The notes under the pieces are model-generated. The model did no database searches, was not told the DNA's origin, and saw only the letters and a list, made by a program, of their open reading frames with translations. Both the position numbers and the translations under genes were made by a program. From NCBI RefSeq assembly GCF_009914755.1, contig NC_060937.1: a stretch of DNA of 64,000 bases. One strand, written 5' to 3'. Below, piece by piece: positions 3,058 through 14,935 of the stretch (within the stretch, counting starts at the first letter, position 1; the number at the start of each line of letters is the position of its first letter). The DNA is from the human T2T-CHM13v2.0 reference genome, Homo sapiens.

Positions 3058-3190
3058 TGTGCCCTTCAAAGCGTGGTCCAGTGGCCAGCAGCAATGGTAT
3101 TGCCTGGGAAACTCATCATCCCAATCCTAGACCTGCAAAGTTAGAATCTGCAGGTGAGCCATGTGCACATGGACATTTGAGAAACCCTGC
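3058..3190 (-). mobile_element. MER5A-like hAT-Charlie DNA transposon remnant
   Basis: Reverse strand reads CAGGGTTTCTCAAA...TCACCTG...GCTGCTGGCCACTGGACCACGCTTTGA, matching MER5 termini. Confidence 0.6.
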
Positions 3191-4088
3191 TCTGGAGGTC
3201 CCCAAGTGGCACCCACCAAGCAGCTCACATGCAGTTGTTGGGAGCACCCTCAAGCAGCGCTTACCCAGCAGAGCAGGCTGAGCCGGAGCAGGAGCAGGAG
3301 CACTCAGCCCCGCCTCCAAAGCGAGTCAGCAGTCTTCGTCATGGGCCAGGTACTAGTTCTTGGGATCTCCCCAGTGCAGTAAGCACATTTTCCAGTGCTC
3401 CCTGGGGGCTTTGGGGGAGCACCCTCATTAGGCTCAGCACTAAGAGCAAATGCACTCTCCAAACCCCTCCTGAAAGGGCAGGATGGAACTTACAGTTGAC
3501 CAAATAAATATTTTCATCAATTTTTCCCAGTCCTCTCTCTGACTACTTTTTGTACCTTTAATCCTGCTGAAAGGCCCAAGAGATAGGAGCAGGTTTCCTT
3601 CCTCTCCCTTGTAAAGTATGCATCTGACATATGCAGGGCCACCTGTCTGATACTCCCTTGGTATCCCAATCACCATCATTTAGAAATCAGTGGAAATTGA
3701 GGCAAAAAGAGTCTCAATCTGATATCCTGTTATAACTATATCCTGGAAAGTATATAAACTATGAAATTTATTTCAAAGTCCCATAATTCTTCACTAATTC
3801 ACACAGGCCTTACTCTAATAACACAGCTTGAAAAAAAGTTGCTGTCAATGGCAGTGAACATGCCTCTTTAAGGATTTTCTGCTTTTATCACTCTGCAGCT
3901 AAAGAAAGCATGACTCAGGTTTGAATCCATCTTCTACACTTTGCTGGCAGAATGTTACTACTAAGATGAAAACTTACTGATGAGAGGATTTCTCTGAGTC
4001 CATTCCTAGTGCTAGACAAATAGCTTGGGCAAAAAATGTTGGTGACGTTGTGCCCGACAGAGAACTTCCAGAGAAAAGGTTGAGAAAT

Positions 4089-4466
4089 TGTATTAGTCTG
4101 TTCAAACACTGCTATAAAGAACTATGTGAGACTGGGTAATTTATTTTTTTAAAAAGAGGTTTAATTGGCTTATGGTTCTGTAGGTCGTATAGGAAACATG
4201 GCTGGGGGAGCCTCAGGAAACTTACAATCATGGTGGAAGGTGAAGAGGAAGGGGGGATTTCTCACATGGCCAGAGCAGGAGGAAGAGAGAGGCGGGAGGT
4301 GCCACACACTTTTCAACACCCAGATCTCGTGAGAACTTAGTATCGTGAGAACAAGGGGGAAGCCGGCCTCCGTGATCCAGTCAGCTCCCAGCAGGCCTCT
4401 TCTCCAATGCTGGGGATTGCAATTTGACATGAGATTTGGGTGGGGGCACAAATTCCAATCATATCA
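4089..4466 (-). mobile_element. MSTA-like solo LTR (ERVL-MaLR)
   Basis: TGTATTAG...ATATCA termini, typical GAGACTGGGTAATTTA and GGAAACTTACAATCATGG motifs, perfect 5-bp TSD GAAAT (4084-4088 / 4467-4471). Confidence 0.9.
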
Positions 4467-5895: not shown

Positions 5896-6082
<187 letters not shown>

Positions 6083-6259
6083 TGTATTACTCAGGGTTCT
6101 CTAGAGGGACAGAACTAATTGAATACTTATATATTCAATTATATATATATACTATATATATATATAAAGGGCAAACTAATTGAATAAAGGGCAAACTAAT
6201 TGAATACATATACTCAATTATATATATATATAAAGGGCAGTTTATCAAGTATTAACTTA

Positions 6260-6809
6260 ATGTACATAATATATATTATATATATTATATTTTATATATT
6301 ATATATTTATATATATTTTCATATATATAATTATATATTTTATATTTTTATATCATAAATACATATAATATATATATATTTATTTATTATATATAATATA
6401 TATTATATTTATATATTATATATAATATATATTATATTTATATATTACATATAATATATAATATATAATATATAATAGATATATAGTATATATAATATAT
6501 AATAGATATATAGTATATATAATATATAATATAACAGATATAATATATATATTATATATAATTATATATAATAATGATATATATAATAAAATATATATTA
6601 TATATAATTATATATAATGATATATAATAAAATATATATTATATATAATTATATATAATAATGATATATAATAATATATAATATATAATTATATATAAAA
6701 TATATATTATATAATTATATATAATGATGATATATAATAAAATATATATTATATACATAATATATATCTATTATAAATATATAATATATATTATATATAA
6801 TTACATATA

Positions 6810-6852
<43 letters not shown>
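6260..6852. repeat. AT-rich low-complexity/(TA)n tract
   Basis: Nearly pure A/T with short internal repeat units, ending in perfect (TA)n at about 6817-6852. Confidence 0.97.
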
Positions 6853-6855
<3 letters not shown>

Positions 6856-7112
6856 GCTGGGTGGGCAAAATCTAATCAGCTGCCAGTGCAGCTAGAATAT
6901 AAGCAGGCAGAAAAATATGAAAAAAGAGACTGACTTAGCCTCCCACCTTACATCTTTCTACCTCGCTGGAAGCTTCCTGCCCTCAAATATTGGACTCCAA
7001 GTTCTTCAGTTTTGGAACTCAGACTGGCTCTCCTTGCTCCTCAGCCTGCAGATGGACTATTGTGGGACCTTGTGATCGTGTAGGTTAATACTTAATAAAC
7101 TGCCCTTTATGT
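6853..7112 (+). repeat. Inverted 260-bp copy of MLT2A LTR segment 8353-8612
   Basis: Reverse complement aligns ungapped to 8353-8612 with about 9 mismatches (hand count). Confidence 0.95.
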
Positions 7113-8352
7113 GTATATATATATTATATATATTAAGTTATACATGTATTATGTATTATATATATTTAGATATATTATATATAATATGTAATATATATAA
7201 TATGTATTATATGTAATATATAATATGTAATATATATAATATGTAATATATAATATATATAATATGTAATATATAATATATAATTATATATAATATATAA
7301 TTATAATTATATATCATATATGTAATATATAATTATAATTATAATTATATATATAATATATAATTATAATTATAATTATATATTACATATATAATATATA
7401 ATTATATATTATATATTTATTAATTATTAATTATATTTTTATATATATTAATTAATATATAGTATATAATCTTATATATATTTATGATAGATATATTATA
7501 TATTATAATATATTACTATATATTATATATAATTATATATTATATATTATTATATATAATTATATATTATATATTATTATATAATTATGTATTATATATT
7601 ATTATATAATTATGTATTATTTATAATAATATATATTTTTATATATAATAATATATAATTATATATATTGCATAATATAATATATATTATATTATAGAAT
7701 ATATATAATTATAAATAATATAAAAATATTAAATATATAATTATATAATTATATATAATTATATATTATATGTACTATATATTATACATTATATATGATA
7801 TATTATATATCATATATGATATATAATATATATTATATTATATACGATATATGATATATCATATATAATATGTATATTATATATATTATATAATATATAT
7901 TATATTATATATTATATATTATATATTATATATGTATATTATATATTATATATTATATATTATATATATAATATGTATAATATATAATATATAATATATA
8001 ATATATAATATATATTAATTATACATAGTTATATATTTAATTATATATAATTAAATATTTATATATTTTTAATTATATATTTAATATTTTTATATTATAT
8101 ATAATTATAGATATTCTATAATATAATATATATATTATGTAATATATAATTATATATAATTATATATAAAAATATATATTATATATATTATATATAATAT
8201 ATACTATTATAACATATATATTACATATAATATATATTAATTAATATAATATATACTAATAACATAATAATTAACATATATATTATATATCTATGAATAT
8301 ATAATATATATTATATATGTAACTTTATATATATATTGTATATATATAATAT
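7113..8352. repeat. 1.24-kb AT-rich spacer between the inverted arms
   Basis: Almost exclusively A/T (TATAA/TATAT-type units). Confidence 0.97.
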
Positions 8353-9282
8353 ACATAAAGGGCAGTTTATTAAGTATTAACCTACACAATCACAAGGTCC
8401 CACAATAGTCTGTCTGCAGGCTGAGGAGCAAGGAGAGCCAGTCTGAGTTCCAAAACTGAAGAACTTGGAGTCCAATGTTCGAGGGCAGGAAGCTTCCAGC
8501 GAGGTAGAAAGATGTAAGCTGGGAGGCTAAGTTAGTCTCTCTTTTCATATTTTTCTGCCTGCTTATATTCTAGCTGCACTGGCAGCTGATTAGATTTTGC
8601 CCACCCACCTTAAGGGTGGGTCTGCCTTTCCCAGCCTACTGACTCAAATGTTAATCTCCTTTGGCAACACCCTTACAGACACACCCAGGATCAATTCTTT
8701 GCATCCTTCAATCCAATCAAATTGACACTGAGTATTAAAAGTCCACTCCTTGTCAACTTGAACCCATACACATCTCCTGAGGTCATACATAATCTTCAAA
8801 TAAAGCCAGTAATAAGGTAATAATTATGCCTAACATAATACAAGTATCCTTCTTACAACCAGAAACACACCAATCCCCAACCCAAATACTACCACATAAA
8901 GTTAACAATACTTAAATGCTGATGTGAAGTCAATAAATCTTATGTCACATGATAAAGGAGAAAGGAAATAAATTGAAGATATTTTCTTAGTACAAGTGTA
9001 TACATGCACAAACATGTTTTTAACAAAAGAAGGAGGAAATACTCATGACAATTACAGTCCTTGTTTCTGCAGCTGGTCATGTGGTGGTAGCTGGTATTGA
9101 TGACTACCGTCTTCTACTACCCATTCTGTATTCCCCTTGGCTCCAGCAAGCCCCTCAGCAGGTCACGTTTTTTATTTTTTCGTGGTGGAGTGACCCCAAA
9201 CCTTTATTCCTGAAGGGTCTGGGTCATTTGTAGTCCCTCTTAGATTGGGCTGTTGTAGTTTCCTAGTGACCTTAATCACAGG

Positions 9283-9560
9283 TCATGGTAATACTAAGAG
9301 ACACCCTAATGGAGCTCCTGTACTCCATGGATACTCTTCATTACCTCCATTGTGGAGTAGCAGACTGATTTCACCTTGATAGTCCGGGTCAGTCACCCCA
9401 GTCAACACTGTAACTCCCTTCTTAGTTGACTTAAAAGTAGTAGAAGCCCGAAGAGTCCACATGGCAATTTTAACTTCTAGTTTAATGGAACCATTGCTGT
9501 GACTCCTGGTGGCAGCATTCCTCCCTCTGGAACTAAGACCTCTAGACCAGCAGAACATAG
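9283..9560 (-). pseudogene. HERV-L dUTPase remnant
   Basis: VLTGVTDPDYQGEISLLLHNGG matches dUTPase motif III (GxIDxDYxGE); lies downstream of integrase as in ERV-L; frameshifted. Confidence 0.85.
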
Positions 9561-9599
9561 TGTTGTGGGAACAAGAAGCAAAAATTTTGCTAGTGGATC

Positions 9600-12500
9600 A
9601 CTATGGGTGACGGTGACTGGTGCCACTTCCACTTCCATCCCTTGATTTCTGGACCCATGAATCTTAGCTTTGGGAGAAACAGTACCATACATTGGACACC
9701 GACTGAGAGAACACATGGCCTTCTGAAGAACTCTGCCCCAGGCTTGCAAAGTATTGTCACTTAGTTGGCCTTGGAATTGTGACTTCAAAAGGCCATTCCA
9801 TCATTCTATCAATCCACTGCTTCAGGCTGATGGGGAACATGGTGAGACCAGTGAATTCCATGAGCACGAGCCCACTGATGCACTGCTTTAGACATCAAGT
9901 GAGTGCCTTAGTCAGAGGCAATGCTGTGGGTAATACCATGATGGTGGATAAGGCATTCTGTGAGTCCAAAGATGGTAGTCTTGGCAGACGCATTGCATGC
10001 AGGATACGCAAACCCATATCCGGATTAAGTGTCTATTCCAGTGAGGACAAACTTCTGTCCTTTCCATGATGGAAGTGGTCCAATATAATCAACCAGCTAC
10101 CAGGTAGCTGGCTGATCACCCTGAAGAATGGTGCCATATCGAGGGTTCAGTATTGTTCTCTGCTACTGGCAAATTGGACACTCAGCAGTGGCCACAGCCA
10201 CGTCAGCCTTGGTGAGTGGAAGCCCATATTTCTGAGCCCATGCATAACCTCCATCCTTGCCACCATAGCCACTTTGTTCATGGGCCCATTGGGCGATCAT
10301 AGGGGTAGCTGGGGAAAGAGGCTGAGTGGTGTCCATAGAATGGGTCATCCTATCCACTTGATTATTAAAATCCTCCTCAGCTGAGATCACCCATTGGCAA
10401 GCACTCACATGGGATACAAATATCTTCAGTTTTTGACCACTCAGAGAGGTCCATCCACATACTTCTTCCCCAAATTTCTTTTTCCAGTCATGCTTATTCC
10501 AAGTCCCTGACCATCCAGCCAAACCACTGGCTGCAGCCCATGAATCAGTATATCATTGCACATCTGGCCATTTCTCCTGCCATGCAAGGTACACAACAGG
10601 GTGCACTCCTGGAAGTTCTGCCCACTGGAAAGATTTCCCTTCACCTCTGTCCTTCAGGCATGTCCTAGAAAGGGGCTGTAGTGCTGCAGCCCTCCACTTT
10701 TGGGTGGTGCCTGCATATTGTGCAGAACCATCTGTGAACCAGGTCCAAGTCTTCTCCTCCTCTGTCAACTGATCATAGGGAACTCCTCAAGAGGCCATTG
10801 GTACAGGCTGGGGGAGAGAAGGCAGGGTGGCACAAGTGGAGACCATGGGCATTTGAGCCACTTCTTCATACAACTTACTTGTGCCTTCAGGACCTGCTTG
10901 AGCCTCATCACATATACACCACTTCCATTTGATGATGGGAAGCTGCTGTGCATGACCCACTTTATGGCTAGATGGGTCAGAAAGCACCCAGTTCATGATA
11001 AGCTGTTCAGGTCACATGGTGACTTGATGACCCACAGTCAAACATTCAGTTTCCACTAAAGCCCAGTAATAGGTCAAGAGCTGTCTCTCCAAAGGAGAGT
11101 CGTTATCTGCAGAAGATGGCAGGGCCTTGCCCCAAAATCCTAGAGGCCTCCGCTGTGATTCACCTATGGGGGCCTGCCAAAGGCTCCAAACAGCATCCCT
11201 ATCTGCCACTGATACCTCAAGCATCTTTGGATCTGCTGGGTTATATGGCCCAAGTGGCAGAGCAGATTGCACAGCAGCCTGGACCCGTTGCAGAACCTTC
11301 TCCTGTTCTGGACCCCACTCAAAACTGACAGTCTTTTGGGTCACTTGATAAATGGGCCAGAGAAACACACCTAAATGAGGACTGTGTTGCCTCCAAAATC
11401 CAAATCAGCCCAATAGGCATCGTACCTCTTTCTTGGTTGTAGCAGGGGCCAAATGCAGCAACTTATTCTTCACCTTAGAAGGACTATCTCAACAGGCTCC
11501 ACACCACTGGACCTCTAGAAATTTTACTGAAGTAGAAGTTCCCCAAATTTTAGTTGGATTTATTTCACATCCTCTGGCATGCGAATGTATCACCAATAAG
11601 TCCAGTGTGTTTGCTACCTCTTGCTTACTGAATCCAATCAGCATAATGTCATCAATGTAATGGACCAGTGTGATATCTTGCAGAAGTGAAAAGTGATCAA
11701 GATCCTCTGAATAAGATTATGACACAAATCTGGAAAGTTGATACACCTTTAAGGTAGGACAGTAAAGGTATATTGCTGGCTTTGCCAGCTGAAGGCAAAT
11801 TGCTTCTGCTGGGCCTTATGGACAGGAATGAAGAAAAAGGCATTTGCTAGGTCAATGGCTGCATAACAGTACCAGGAGATGTGTTAATTTGGTCAAGCAA
11901 TGAAACCACATCTGGTACAGCAGCTGCAATTGGAGTCACCACTTGGTTAAGCTTACAATAATCCACTGTCATTCTCCAAGATCTGTCTGTCTTCTGCCCA
12001 GGCCAAATGGGAGAGTTGAATGGGATATGGTGGGAATCACCACCCCTGCATCTTTCAAATCATTTATGGTGGCACTAATCTCCACAATCCCACCGGGGAT
12101 GTGATATTGTTTTTTATTTACTATTTTTTCTAGGTAGAGGCAGCTCTAATGGCTTCCATTTGGCCTTTCCTACCATAGTAGCCCTCACCCTACCAGTCAG
12201 GGAGCCAAGGTGGGGGTTCTGCCAGCTGCTAATTATGTCTATGCCAGTTATACTTTCTGGCACTGGGCAAATGACCATAGGATGAATCTGGGGGCCCACT
12301 GGACCCACTTAAGTCAGACCTGAGCTAAAACTCCATTAATAACTTGACCTCCATAAGTCCCTACTTTAACTGGAGGACCATAATGATGTTTTGGGTCACC
12401 TGGAATCACCATCAGCTCAGAGCCAGTGTCCAGCAGTCCCCAAAAGGTCTGATCATTTCCCTTTCCCTAATCCACAGTTACCCTGTCCTTAAAAGGCCAG
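9600..12500 (-). pseudogene. pol: HERV-L pro-pol remnant (protease, RT, RNase H, integrase), disrupted
   Basis: GLLDTGSEL at about 12415-12440; YIDD at 11648-11659; WFTDGSA (ORF 10553-10768); WAHEQSG...ECPICQ integrase zinc finger (ORF 10163-10522); many stops and frameshifts. Confidence 0.92.
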
Positions 12501-12649
12501 AGGTTTCCTTGGGGAAGGATGGGAGAAACATTCACTGCATAAATTGTCAGAAACGTAGTGGGGTCTTTCCTCAAGGGGACCCAGCTTCCCCTTCATTCAA
12601 GGGGTTCTTGGTCTGTAAACTGGCTCAAGTCTGGAAATTGATTGAGGGG

Positions 12650-14336
12650 CTGTGATTTTCTGTCTTTATAATTCAAATTAATCTTTTGTCCTTTCGACCT
12701 AGAAGGTTTCTGCTTATATAAATTAAATAGGAATGCAGTAGGCTTCTTATAAATTTCACTTCTAGGAACACCGTGATTGATTAGCCAATGCCAGAGCTCT
12801 ACATGGATCAGACTATTCTGATTGCTGCTTTGCTTCTGCTGTCTCTTATGGTAGCTATGCCCACCTTACCTTTGATGGTTAAGTGCCGCTACTTGGCCCC
12901 TGCCCCTCGGGATCTAATTATTCCCATTGTATTTAAATTTTGTAGTTGAGTGACTGTAGTTCCCACTGTTAGATCTAACATACAGAAAAGAGCAATTACA
13001 GGGCTTTTCAAAGATGTAGGTGCTGCCCTCACAAATCTATTTCAGAAGACATTGGTCAAGAGTATATCTTCTGGACCCTCTCAGCTGGTGTGAGTAGATC
13101 TAAAGTGACTAATCCAATCCACCATCCCAATGCCCCTAAGCCTTTGGACCCCTTCCTCAACATTAAACCAAGGGAGATCAGACATTTCCATCTCACTCAC
13201 AGTGGGCCATATTATAATGCATATTTCAGCTAACCAAGCAAATAAACTATTAGAACCTTTTCTAACTCCCCAAGCTGCAGCATTAAATGTAGAGTTCCTA
13301 CATAGTGGGCACAAATCAATAAATTCAGCCTCATCCAACTCTGTTTTTTCCACCACTATCCCACACCCTTAATATCCACTCCCATACCTGTTCTCCAGAT
13401 TTCTGTTTATATAAATTAGAAAACTCAAGCAGTTCTTTTTGAGTATAGCACACCTCCCTCATGGGTCACACTCTCAACCTCACCTCTTGGAGCCCACTGG
13501 GACTTTAGACTAGTTATAGGTCTAGAAGCAAAAAGGGTATTGGGGGTGGCTCCTGAGGAGATTCATTATCTTGCCTGACAGCTGCCTCAGGGGAGGCCAT
13601 CACTGTTGCCTCAGGCAGCGCAGGGTTTATCTCCTCAGACAAAGGTGGAGAAGCTGATGGCAGCATGAGTCGGGTGAGGGGGGAATGTTGCCACTACTGA
13701 TGATAGGGAAGCTGTTTCTTCTGGCAAAAAGGGTTCATCAGAGTTTACAAACTCAATGTCCCCAGCTTCATCATGGTCCTCCCATACATTCCCATTCCAA
13801 GTTGCAGCGTCCCATTCTTTTCCAATCAATGCCCTCATTTTATCAGTAGACACCTGGCAAGGCTGTGCATGCACCTTTTGTTGCAGGTCAGCCACTCACA
13901 TGATAAGAGTTTATGTCTGTTTTTCCACAATTTCAGCTCTTTCTCTGCAAGAGATAAGACTCTCACTCAGGGCAGTCTTAACAGAGTTGAAGCTCAGTAT
14001 CTGCTTCTGAAGCCAGGAGACAGAATCACTGAATTCATAATTTTCTTTAATCACTTTGTCCATTGAACTTAGGAGCAACCAACCAGCTTCATTATATTCC
14101 TTGGTTCTCCATATATGGTCAAAGGTATTATGTATAGAGTCACTAAACTCATTGCCCCTTATGAGCAATGAATCAGAAGTGTAAAATGCATTTATTTTGC
14201 ATAACTCTCTGAGCAATTCATGCCAAGGACTATCAGTGTTCTCCATACTATTAGAAGTAGAGTCCCTAGCATTTTTGGGTCTAATCATATTAAGAAGCCA
14301 ACTCCAGAAAACCCAAAACCAACAAAAGAACCCCAT
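12650..14336 (-). pseudogene. gag: HERV-L gag remnant
   Basis: ORFs 13911-14336 (FWSWLLNMIRPKNARDSTSNSMENTDSPWHEL), 13635-13895 (RALIGKEWD..TWNG.VWED) and 13081-13356 (LPWFNVEEGVQRLR) resemble ERV-L Gag; fragmented. Confidence 0.88.
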
Positions 14337-14360
14337 CCTTAATATTCTCTTCCTCTAGAA

Positions 14361-14375
14361 CAACTCCTGGTACCA
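14361..14375 (-). promoter_or_regulatory. HERV-L primer binding site (tRNA-Leu type)
   Basis: Minus strand TGGTACCAGGAGTTG, 5 nt after the 5' LTR end. Confidence 0.75.
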
Positions 14376-14380
14376 AAATC

Positions 14381-14824
14381 TGTATTAGTCAGGGTTCTCT
14401 AGAGGGACAGAACTAATATATATATATATATATGTATAGGGGAGATTTTAAAGTATTAACTCACATGATCACAAGGCCCCATAATAAGCTGTCTGCAGGC
14501 CGAGGAGCAAAGAGAACCAGTCCAAGTTCCAAAACGGAAGAACTTGGAGTCCAATGTTTGAGGTCCAGAAGCATTCAGAACTGGAGAAAGATGTAGGCTG
14601 GGAGGCTAAGTCAGTCTCTCTTTTCATGTTTTTCTGCCTGCTTATATTCTAGCTGCATTGGCAGCTGATTAGATTGTGCCCATTCAGCTTAAGGGTAGGT
14701 CTGCCTTTCCCAGCTTACTGACCAAATGTTAATCCCCTTTGGCAACATCCTTACAGACACACCCAGTATCAATGCTTTGTATCCTTCATTCCAATCAAGT
14801 TGACACTCAGTATTAACCATCACA
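14381..14824 (-). mobile_element. HERV-L 5' LTR (MLT2A)
   Basis: TGTATTAGTCAGGG...TATTAACCATCACA termini; only a short (TA)n at about 14417-14432. Confidence 0.95.
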
Positions 14825-14935
14825 CAGAGTTTCTCCATGTTGGCTAGGCTGGTCTCAAAATCCTGACCTCAGGTGACATGCCCTCCTTAGCCTCCCAAAA
14901 TGCAGGATTACAGGTGTGAACCACCACACCTGGCC
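14825..14935 (-). mobile_element. AluS, 5' part (continuation of 5899-6082)
   Basis: CAGAGTTTCTCCATGTTGGCTAGGCTGG...ACCTCAGGTGA...CCTGGCC resumes where the other half stops; degenerate TSD TTAA(C)ATACTT. Confidence 0.92.

What the first reader, a model, noticed from the sequence alone, without database searches (positions are those of the whole stretch)
6853..8612. PATRR-like structure: 260-bp inverted LTR arms around a 1.24-kb AT spacer in the HERV-L 3' LTR
Seen: 6853-7112 is the reverse complement of 8353-8612 (about 9 mismatches, about 3.5%). Both arms share variants absent from the 5' LTR (AGCGAGGTAGAAAG vs AGAACTGGAGAAAG; GATTTTGCCC vs GATTGTGCCC), so the copy arose locally, well after integration, or was homogenised by conversion. 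Symmetry seems to extend into the AT tract (AAGTTA and TAGATATA landmarks on both sides). Established: palindromic AT-rich repeats and long (TA)n form cruciforms and are breakage-prone. Inference: a retrovirus-derived fragile, length-polymorphic site.
Basis: partly seen in the sequence, partly recalled or inferred. Interest (0 to 1): 0.8.

Follow-up and report, generated by a model that had tools for sequence, protein, structure and literature searches.

The report
Ancient inverted duplication inside HERV-L LTR
A 265-base piece of an old endogenous-retrovirus LTR was copied backwards into the LTR's own overgrown AT-rich microsatellite millions of years ago, leaving a widely spaced inverted repeat that looks like, but does not qualify as, the breakage-prone AT-rich palindromes behind recurrent human translocations.

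Summary
The inverted repeat is real. Arms 6852-7116 and 8349-8613 are 265 nt each, with 10 mismatches, no gaps and a 1232-nt spacer that is 95.7% AT. The left arm's closest relative in the whole assembly is the right arm (96%; the next copies are 90% or less). The two arms share 11 derived substitutions, and each also carries its own: 5 in the left arm, 3 in the right, 2 undecided. This makes it a local copy made after integration. It is old (K2P 0.039 between arms against 0.14-0.17 between LTRs) and not an assembly artefact. The most likely origin is fold-back or template-switch synthesis at a break in the LTR's expanded (TA)n tract. It is not a PATRR: the arms are only 56% AT, the spacer is over 1 kb, and the main axis shows no symmetry beyond about 70 nt. 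The spacer does hold its own AT palindromes, one of 126 nt (95%) and one of 557 nt (84%). Fragility and polymorphism remain untested. Verdict: an ordinary spaced inverted repeat with an instructive history; low to moderate interest.

The parts
6083..8750 (-). 3' LTR of the provirus, swollen from about 445 nt to about 2.67 kb (84.6% AT overall)
   Evidence: Terminal motif at 6090. Its right part aligns to the other LTR at 87%. Composition. The upper boundary (~8750) was read by eye and is approximate.
6109..6231 (.). Tandemly duplicated units, each spanning the LTR microsatellite and its two flanks. Includes a perfect 20-nt x 2.2 repeat at 6164-6206.
   Evidence: TRF (period 20, 100% matches); family D5; sequence.
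6232..6259 (+). Third, partial (28-nt) direct copy of the inner end of the arm sequence. The segment order is therefore +, -, +.
   Evidence: the repeat finder D6: 6224-6259 against 8349-8384, 92%.
6260..6851 (.). AT tract 1: 592 nt, 96.6% AT, an impure TA/ATATTAT-type array
6816..6852 (.). Longest pure (TA)n run (37 nt, about 18 units). It directly abuts the outer end of the left arm, at the junction ...TATAT|TAAGC.
   Evidence: One search found it as the only pure run of 16 nt or more in 6080-8700; sequence.
6852..7116 (+). Left arm: the inverted (secondary) copy of an LTR segment, 55.8% AT
   Evidence: It carries 5 private derived substitutions.
7117..8348 (.). Spacer (AT tract 2): 1232 nt, 95.7% AT, with only 53 G/C
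7117..7183 (.). Probable AT-rich inward extension of the left arm, pairing with 8277-8348
   Evidence: blastn extension; 57 of 72 columns match; mirrored unique landmarks. Not significant by the anchored-alignment null.
7292..7417 (.). P1: a 126-nt near-perfect AT palindrome with no spacer, centred at 7354.5
   Evidence: 61 of 64 columns match. DNA hairpin -39.6 kcal/mol, z -13.6, 0 of 200 shuffles as good. 180 bits against a maximum of 131 in 50 Markov simulations.
7626..8182 (.). P2: a 557-nt imperfect AT palindrome centred at 7904.5; its outer ~115 nt are the best conserved
   Evidence: 243 of 291 columns match, 83.5%. 321 bits; 0 of 50 Markov simulations reach 180. Pair I14.
8277..8348 (.). 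Probable AT-rich inward extension of the right arm
8349..8613 (+). Right arm: the original, in-place LTR segment, contiguous with the rest of the LTR
   Evidence: It carries 3 private derived substitutions.
8751..14380 (-). Degenerate internal region of the provirus (pol remnants on the minus strand)
   Evidence: Pfam: RT_RNaseH_2 at 11015-11404(-), E 6.5e-9, above cut-off. dUTPase at 9286-9597(-), E 0.004, below cut-off. DUF5535 at 12596-12865(-). 0 of 13 plus-strand ORFs hit anything.
14381..14824 (-). 5' LTR, unexpanded (444 nt). It has only a microsatellite of about 20 nt where the 3' LTR has 2.1 kb.
6000..6082 (+). Left half of an Alu that the provirus interrupts; the right half resumes at 14825
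   Evidence: Sequences. The Alu identification is by eye and from recall.

Best explanation
This is an old, local, templated inverted duplication inside the 3' LTR of a HERV-L-type provirus, seeded by the LTR's own (TA)n microsatellite.

Shown: the microsatellite is about 20 nt in the sister 5' LTR and 7-28 nt in most family copies. In this LTR it has grown to about 1.8 kb of impure, self-complementary AT sequence. A 265-nt (perhaps ~335-nt) copy of the LTR segment lying just beyond the tract sits inside the tract in reverse orientation, at the end of the tract's only pure (TA)18 run.

Inferred: a break or stalled fork occurred at the (TA)n run. The 3' end folded back across about 1.1-1.2 kb of AT tract and annealed to self-complementary AT sequence next to the LTR body. 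It copied 265 nt of LTR, and the new end was then joined to the other broken end at a TTAA/TATA microhomology. The event dates to roughly a quarter to a third of the provirus's age, probably about 8-18 million years using recalled neutral rates. The two arms have since diverged independently.

Today the structure is a widely spaced inverted repeat with no evident function. The LTR arms cannot nucleate a cruciform across a 1.2-kb asymmetric spacer. Any structure-driven trouble would start in the AT tract itself: the P1 126-nt palindrome, the P2 557-nt palindrome, and the (TA)18 run. The arms would matter only secondarily, as annealing or recombination partners once the region is single-stranded or broken (spacer inversion, inverted dimers).
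For: The repeat is real and in register. The left arm's best match among 40 scored of 3160 genome candidates is the right arm at 96%; the next best is 90% or less. Polarising with the 5' LTR and 31 other family copies shows 11 derived states shared by both arms. Of the 10 arm-arm mismatches, 5 are derived in the left arm, 3 in the right and 2 are ambiguous. K2P is 0.039 between the arms, against 0.170 (arm region) and 0.142 (389 sites) between the LTRs. The 5' LTR and 28 of 31 other copies have only 7-28 nt between the two LTR parts at this position, and 0 of 31 have an inverted second copy within 1.5 kb. Three of 31 copies show growth at the same microsatellite (269 nt; 176 nt; at least 330 nt). 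One of these (L007) carries a miniature version of the same event, AAACTCCC-(TA)9-GGGAGTTT. The outer junction lies exactly at the end of the only pure (TA)n run. The spacer length fits the fold-back loops sequenced in human inverted duplications (766-70,466 bp; PMC3907307, passages). Fold-back templated inverted insertions at breaks, with the second end captured by end joining, are documented in yeast (PMC11724301, abstract). Tandem duplications of the microsatellite plus its flanks at 6109-6231 show repeated slippage or switching here.
Against: No orthologue or second human haplotype could be examined, so age, fixation and polymorphism are inferred from one assembly. The junction microhomology is at most 4 nt of AT sequence and is uninformative. 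The model does not by itself explain the third partial copy at 6232-6259; that needs an earlier tandem duplication. The ~70-nt inward extension is not significant against a random-pair null. The 31 comparison copies are the best-scoring ones returned by the search, not a random sample. Gene conversion between the arms would make the event older than estimated. The substitution rates used for dating are recalled. The family name (HERV-L / MLT2A-type) is recalled and was not tested against a repeat library.
Confidence: 0.6

Rival explanations
1. Perfect palindrome first. A fold-back at a short (TA)n produced a true, nearly spacerless palindrome, rc(LTR segment)-(TA)n-LTR segment. Its unstable centre was later 'revised' and grew to 1.2 kb of AT sequence, which stabilised it.
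For: Mirrored unique landmarks with a common 5-nt shift, and a blastn extension of about 70 nt into the tract on both sides. A mirrored G:C skew in the outer 300 nt, 11:3 on the left against 5:9 on the right, p = 0.054. The L007 copy shows a spacer-poor mini-palindrome directly across (TA)9. The spacer is rich in secondary palindromes, as expected from repeated hairpin-driven events.
Against: No symmetry on the main axis beyond about 70 nt. The strong internal palindromes have other centres, 7354.5 and 7904.5 against 7732.5. Anchored alignments are not above the null. This model does not explain AT tract 1, which lies outside the palindrome.
Confidence: 0.2
2. One reading: a PATRR-like, cruciform-forming, breakage-prone and length-polymorphic site in present-day genomes.
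For: As single-stranded DNA the region folds with 259 of 265 arm bases paired in register. The arms alone give -310 kcal/mol and the spacer alone -266 kcal/mol. Its architecture, AT-rich in the middle with GC-richer ends, resembles the PATRR description in PMC1851657. P1 is a 126-nt, 97.6% AT, 95% symmetric palindrome with a 3-nt loop, z -13.6. (TA)18 is close to the 20-22 units at which perfect (AT)n forms cruciforms (PMC11797062, passage). The perfect 20-nt tandem repeat and the pure TA run suggest ongoing slippage.
Against: The PATRR defining features fail for the LTR-arm repeat: a 1232-nt spacer, arms 55.8% AT, and no central symmetry. A 9-bp spacer plus 4 central mismatches abolished extrusion and instability of PATRR22 (PMC1851657). 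In yeast, breaks at Alu inverted repeats fell by about 50% with 7-8 bp spacers and by 80% with a 9-bp spacer (PMC8053094). Hairpins between inverted Alus more than 100 bp apart are described as rare, and inverted Alu pairs about 1 kb apart are common in the genome (I:D about 0.95; PMC3215922). The arms have survived long enough to collect 10 differences. In S1-END-seq data, (TA)n cruciform peaks were 5.8-fold more numerous in microsatellite-unstable than in stable lines (bioRxiv 10.1101/2022.01.19.476973). No breakage or population data were available.
Confidence: 0.1
3. Two independent elements: a second HERV-L LTR (solo or fragment) inserted in opposite orientation into the AT tract and was later truncated.
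For: The family has thousands of copies (3160-4124 first-look candidates), so nested insertions do occur.
Against: The arms share 11 derived states absent from the 5' LTR and from most of 31 other copies. They are 96% identical to each other but 90% or less to any other scored copy. The copy starts exactly at the microsatellite edge.
Confidence: 0.02
4. Assembly or sequencing artefact (a chimeric fold-back read built into the assembly).
For: Long AT tracts and palindromes are hard to sequence (background in PMC4057610).
Against: An artefactual fold-back would give identical arms. Here there are 10 differences, 8 of them transitions, with derived states on both arms.
Confidence: 0.02

Closest known systems
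Palindromic AT-rich repeats (PATRR11, PATRR22, PATRR17)
   Same: Both have an AT-rich middle flanked by GC-richer sequence, an overall length of hundreds of bases to 1.8 kb, and strong predicted hairpin potential. The internal palindromes P1 and P2 are over 96% AT and spacerless.
   Different: PATRRs are more than 90% AT throughout, nearly perfect and without a spacer, and they break at their centre (PMC4940405, PMC1851657; passages). Here the long-range arms are 56% AT LTR sequence, 1232 nt apart, around an asymmetric centre. P1 is shorter (126 nt) than the smallest PATRR cited (~190 nt), and P2 is only 84% symmetric. No translocation or polymorphism data exist for this site.
Fold-back inverted duplications and fold-back templated insertions at breaks
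   Same: An inverted and a direct copy are separated by a single-copy spacer of kilobase scale. Short or low-complexity inverted homology lies where the fold-back would prime, and the second junction looks like end joining (PMC3907307, passages; PMC11724301, abstract).
   Different: The described human cases duplicate megabases and end in terminal deletions or translocations. The yeast insertions are mostly 5-34 bp. This one is an interstitial 265-335 nt copy fixed in the germline, and its mechanism is inferred from sequence only.
AT/TA microsatellite flexibility peaks of common fragile sites (FRA16D Flex1, Flex5) and the expanded (TA)n broken in WRN-deficient MSI cells
   Same: Self-complementary AT/TA repeats can form hairpins and cruciforms. 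The interrupted AT repeats here resemble Flex5 (PMC11797062, passages).
   Different: Those sites rely on long perfect runs: more than 20-22 units for cruciforms, (AT)23-34 for fragility. The longest perfect run here is about 18 units, and TRF finds only 64-71% period-2 matches. The window is not known to me to lie in a mapped fragile site; this was not searched.
Closely spaced inverted Alu pairs (spaced inverted repeats or quasi-palindromes)
   Same: Arms of about 300 nt about 1 kb apart is the commonest geometry of adjacent Alu pairs (median spacer 930 bp). Such pairs can misroute repair of a nearby break. In yeast, 2-kb repeats with a 1-kb spacer gave mainly inter-molecular annealing and inverted dimers (PMC3215922, PMC6103520; passages).
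   Different: The arms here are paralogous copies of one LTR segment at 96% identity, and the spacer is itself structure-prone AT DNA. Alu pairs arise from independent insertions.

Membership tests
PATRR (palindromic AT-rich repeat) | More than 90% AT content over the palindrome (PMC4940405) | tested here: not met
   The arms are 55.8% AT and the whole 6852-8613 region is 83.7% AT. Only the spacer (95.7%), P1 (97.6%) and P2 (96.2%) exceed 90%.
PATRR (palindromic AT-rich repeat) | Nearly perfect palindrome without a spacer (PMC4940405) | tested here: not met
   The spacer is 1232 nt between arms that are 96.2% complementary, or about 1093 nt if the AT extensions are counted.
PATRR (palindromic AT-rich repeat) | Central symmetry with an AT-rich centre (PMC1851657) | tested here: not met
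   The centre at 7732 is AT-rich but not symmetric. No inverted match lies on the main axis beyond about 70 nt from the arms. The local palindromes P1 and P2 do have symmetric AT centres, but on other axes.
PATRR (palindromic AT-rich repeat) | Found at translocation breakpoints; size-polymorphic alleles in the population | not testable with these tools
   Only one assembly is held. No breakpoint or pangenome data were available, and no literature search for 13q33 translocations was made.
ERV-L / HERV-L provirus with MLT2A-type LTRs | Two LTRs in the same orientation flanking gag-pol remnants, including RNase H and a dUTPase downstream in pol | tested here: met
   The LTRs at 6083-8750 and 14381-14824 align at 87%. 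RT_RNaseH_2 scores above the Pfam cut-off; dUTPase scores below it (17.3 against 22 bits); both are on the minus strand in the expected order. The family and subfamily names are recalled; no repeat library was available.
Fold-back / template-switch inverted duplication | Inverted and direct copies of one local segment separated by a single-copy spacer | tested here: met
   Searches show the arms are each other's closest relatives and share 11 derived sites.
Fold-back / template-switch inverted duplication | Inverted (micro)homology at the priming site and microhomology at the capture junction | tested here: inconclusive
   The priming side is AT-rich and self-complementary (57 of 72 columns), which is not above chance for this tract. 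The capture junction shares at most TTAA/TA.
Cruciform-forming perfect (AT/TA)n microsatellite | Perfect run longer than about 20-22 units (PMC11797062) | tested here: not met
   The longest perfect run in this assembly is 37 nt, about 18 units, at 6816-6852. Allele lengths in other genomes are unknown.

The most novel reading that the evidence does not exclude
This locus may be a PATRR in the making. On this reading, the (TA)n microsatellite built into ERV-L LTRs is a recurrent seed. Through repeated hairpin-primed fold-backs it grows into kilobase AT-rich palindrome mosaics capped by GC-richer inverted arms, which is the architecture of translocation-prone PATRRs. The 13q33 site would then be structurally polymorphic in humans (spacer flips between the arms, P1/P2 deletions, TA expansions) and break under replication stress. 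The hints are the two internal spacerless AT palindromes, the mini-palindrome at the same LTR position in another copy (L007), and growth of the same microsatellite in 3 of 31 other copies.
Probability: 0.1. Interest if true: 0.55.

Novelty: new member of a known kind. Interest (0 to 1): 0.25.

Why it matters
If the reading is right, the locus is a datable natural example of how a transposon-borne (TA)n microsatellite grows and captures flanking sequence in reverse orientation by fold-back synthesis. It also shows that a 265-nt, 96%-identical inverted repeat with a 1.2-kb AT spacer can persist in the germline for millions of years. That is useful calibration for genome-wide 'non-B DNA' annotation, which would flag this site as dangerous. 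It changes no gene model and overlaps no annotated functional element. If the bolder reading held, ERV-L LTRs would be a source of new AT-rich palindromes and of structural polymorphism.

Tried and rejected
1. I first read the LTRs as plus-strand, which would make this the 5' LTR. I rejected that after Pfam placed all pol hits on the minus strand and a PBS-like site was found beside the LTR at 14381.
2. A lenient anchored extension test of spacer symmetry could not discriminate (null at or above the true score in 106 of 200). The stricter version also showed no excess. An exact mirrored 7-mer test found 0 of 8 within 100 nt and 1 of 12 within 200 nt, not above the null (P = 0.16).
4. The first Markov-null script timed out with no output. 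I reran it smaller.
6. Three papers were not held: van Wietmarschen 2020 and Inagaki 2005. The lists of broken (TA)n sites and the evolutionary history of PATRR17 could therefore not be checked. bioRxiv supplements with S1-END-seq peak lists are closed, and they may bear on the fragility claim.
7. The GAP-Seq paper and the non-B DNA review held nothing on this locus in the passages shown.
8. One literature search for HERV-L/MLT2A together with inverted repeat and AT-rich found 3 papers holding at least 3 of the 4 terms, none on this topic by title. This is weak evidence that the locus is undescribed.
9. The higher LTR-LTR divergence in the arm region (K 0.170 against 0.086 beyond it) might have suggested mutagenesis of the arms. 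I rejected this because most of those differences are derived in the 5' LTR, not in the arms.
Full report
**Observation.** The inverted repeat exists as described. The repeat finder gives arms 6852-7116 and 8349-8613: 265 nt, 96% complementary, 1232 nt apart. A base-by-base comparison finds 10 mismatches and no gaps. Eight of the ten are transitions. In assembly coordinates the arms are chr13:108,444,852-108,445,116 and 108,446,349-108,446,613.

**Context.** A second LTR lies at 14381-14824. Of 20 stop-to-stop ORFs tested between the LTRs (13 on the plus strand, 7 on the minus), only minus-strand ORFs hit Pfam:
- RT_RNaseH_2 at 11015-11404 (E 6.5e-9, above cut-off)
- DUF5535 at 12596-12865 (just above cut-off)
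- dUTPase at 9286-9597 (E 0.004, below cut-off)
- a weak, sub-cut-off DivIVA match at 13914-14354, taken as spurious

On the minus strand a TGG-starting primer-binding-like site follows the LTR at 14381. I first read it the other way round and corrected this. The names HERV-L and MLT2A-type are from recall; no repeat library was available. The provirus interrupts an Alu (identified by eye).

**What the LTR looks like.** The 5' LTR is 444 nt and has a microsatellite of about 20 nt. At that position the 3' LTR contains, in plus-strand order:
- tandem duplications of the microsatellite with its flanks (6109-6231, including a perfect 20-nt x 2.2 repeat)
- a 28-nt direct partial copy of the arm's inner end (6232-6259)
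- AT tract 1 (592 nt, 96.6% AT), ending in the only pure (TA)n run of the region (6816-6852, 37 nt)
- the inverted arm
- AT tract 2, which is the spacer (1232 nt, 95.7% AT)
- the in-place arm, which continues into the rest of the LTR

The arms are 55.8% AT. TRF scores the AT tracts as impure, with 64-71% matches at period 2 and a period of 7 also reported.

**Is the copy local, and how old is it?** Searching the whole assembly with the left arm (40 scored of 3160 candidates) returns the right arm as the best non-self hit at 96%. Every other scored copy is 90% or less. I polarised sites with the 5' LTR and 31 other distinct family copies. These are the best-scoring copies, with duplicates and the two own LTRs dropped. 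Of the 255 sites where the arms agree, 36 differ from the 5' LTR, and at 11 of those both arms share the derived state. Of the 10 arm-arm mismatches, 5 are derived in the left arm, 3 in the right and 2 are ambiguous. K2P is 0.039 between the arms, against 0.170 (arm region) and 0.142 (389 sites) between the LTRs. The copy was therefore made from this LTR after it had already diverged, at roughly a quarter to a third of the provirus's age. Both copies have mutated independently since. With recalled neutral rates of about 1.1-2.3e-9 per site per year, the event dates to roughly 8-18 My and the provirus to 31-65 My. This is an inference, and gene conversion between the arms would make it older. 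Independent derived changes on both arms rule out a fold-back read artefact, which would give identical arms. Shared derived states rule out an independent second insertion.

**Symmetry of the spacer.** AAGTTA and TAACTT are each unique in 6260-8352, and TAGATATA and TATATCTA are mirrored with the same 5-nt shift. A gapped blastn extension runs about 70 nt into the tract on both sides (337 columns at 92.6%; the extra 72 columns have 57 matches). The G:C skew is weakly mirrored, 11:3 against 5:9, p = 0.054. These landmarks were chosen after the fact, however. Anchored alignments of the inner ends are no better than random pairs from the same tract, and an exact mirrored 7-mer test is negative. 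Beyond about 70 nt nothing lies on the main axis.

Instead the spacer contains palindromes with their own axes:
- P1, 7292-7417: 126 nt, 61 of 64 columns matching, 3-nt loop, hairpin -39.6 kcal/mol, z -13.6, 0 of 200 shuffles as good.
- P2, 7626-8182: 557 nt, 243 of 291 columns matching, 83.5%.

Their blastn scores (180 and 321 bits) exceed every one of 50 Markov simulations of the spacer (maximum 131). They also exceed the best direct self-match in AT tract 2 (97.6 bits).

**Origin (inferred).** The arrangement rc(segment)-AT2-segment, with the inverted copy abutting a pure (TA)n run on its outer side, fits the following sequence of events:
1. A break or stall occurred in an already expanded AT tract.
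2. The 3' end folded back across about 1.1-1.2 kb.
3. The end primed on self-complementary AT sequence next to the LTR body.
4. It copied 265 nt (335 nt with the AT extension).
5. The new end was captured by the other broken end at TTAA/TA microhomology.

Sequenced human fold-back duplications have single-copy spacers of 766-70,466 bp (PMC3907307, passages). Fold-back templated inverted insertions with end-joining capture are documented in yeast (PMC11724301, abstract). Some support comes from relatives. Of 31 other copies, 28 have 7-28 nt at this position and 2 have 176 and 269 nt. One (L007) has at least 330 nt of AT tract plus an 8-nt GC-bearing inverted copy of the flank directly across (TA)9. 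None has a long inverted copy within 1.5 kb. The rival, a spacer-poor palindrome whose centre later grew, is not excluded (about 0.2).

**Present behaviour.** As single-stranded DNA the region folds with 259 of 265 arm bases in register. The arms alone give -310 kcal/mol and the spacer alone -266 kcal/mol. Any long inverted repeat would fold this way, so the real question is whether the structure can form in a cell. The literature passages I read bear on that:
- A 9-bp spacer with 4 central mismatches abolished cruciform extrusion and instability of PATRR22 (PMC1851657).
- In yeast, breaks at Alu inverted repeats fell by about 50% with 7-8 bp spacers and by 80% with a 9-bp spacer (PMC8053094).
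- Hairpins between inverted Alus more than 100 bp apart are described as rare, and adjacent inverted Alu pairs about 1 kb apart are only slightly depleted (I:D about 0.95; PMC3215922).
- Yeast repeats with a 1-kb spacer act mainly after a nearby break, by inter-molecular annealing that gives inverted dimers (PMC6103520).
- Perfect (AT)n forms cruciforms above 20-22 units (PMC11797062); the longest pure run here is about 18 units.
- In S1-END-seq data, (TA)n cruciform peaks were 5.8-fold more numerous in microsatellite-unstable than in stable lines (bioRxiv 10.1101/2022.01.19.476973).

I conclude that the LTR arms do not make a PATRR. If the site is unstable at all, the AT tract (P1, P2, the TA run) is the initiating element, and the arms are secondary recombination or annealing partners.

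**Comparison and verdict.** For the LTR-arm repeat, the PATRR defining features fail: more than 90% AT, near-perfect symmetry, no spacer, a symmetric centre. The fold-back inverted duplication geometry is met, but its junction signatures are inconclusive in AT sequence. The finding is a new member of known kinds: a spaced inverted repeat from a local templated inverted duplication at an AT microsatellite. No function is suggested; the region is intergenic and overlaps none of the annotated enhancers in the hub table. Fragility and polymorphism remain open because only one assembly, no orthologues and no break-mapping tables were accessible. Interest is low to moderate. The boldest reading not excluded is that ERV-L LTR microsatellites seed new AT-rich palindromes and that this site is a polymorphic, breakage-prone 'proto-PATRR' (about 10%).

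Noticed in passing
window 6000-6082 and 14825-~14935: The provirus splits an Alu: the left half ends ...TAGTAGAGATGAG and the right half resumes ...CAGAGTTTCTCCATGTTGG. The insertion therefore post-dates that Alu. The target-site duplication is degenerate (about ATGAG against CAGAG).
   Followed up: partly
L007 1140-1515 (G000:C10:114832974-114836357): Another copy of the same LTR family has an AT tract of at least 330 nt at the same microsatellite position and has lost the LTR end beyond it. It also carries a mini-palindrome, AAACTCCC-(TA)9-GGGAGTTT, in which the flank is copied in reverse across the TA run.
   Followed up: partly
L002 ~1230-1500 and L034 (reverse strand) ~1350-1527: Two further family copies have grown 269-nt and 176-nt compound repeats (TA with GTGTGT or GCATAT units) at the same LTR microsatellite. 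This position appears to be recurrently expandable.
   Followed up: no
window 6164-6206: A perfect 20-nt tandem repeat (2.2 copies, 100% identity) joins the start of the post-microsatellite LTR segment to the end of the pre-microsatellite segment. It looks like a recent slippage or duplication event in an otherwise old LTR.
   Followed up: no
window 8349-8740 vs 14381-14824: LTR-LTR divergence is uneven: K2P is 0.170 over the arm region against 0.086 over the next 124 sites. Most of the arm-region differences are derived in the 5' LTR rather than in the arms.
   Followed up: partly
window 12596-12865 (-): A minus-strand ORF fragment matches Pfam DUF5535 (E 8.4e-6, just above cut-off). It sits where gag or protease remnants of the provirus would be expected.
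   Followed up: no
window 7522-7608 vs 6642-6725: An 87-nt stretch of AT tract 2 matches AT tract 1 in inverted orientation at 93% (101 bits, within the range of the Markov null). It may be shared self-complementary motifs rather than a further duplication.
   Followed up: no
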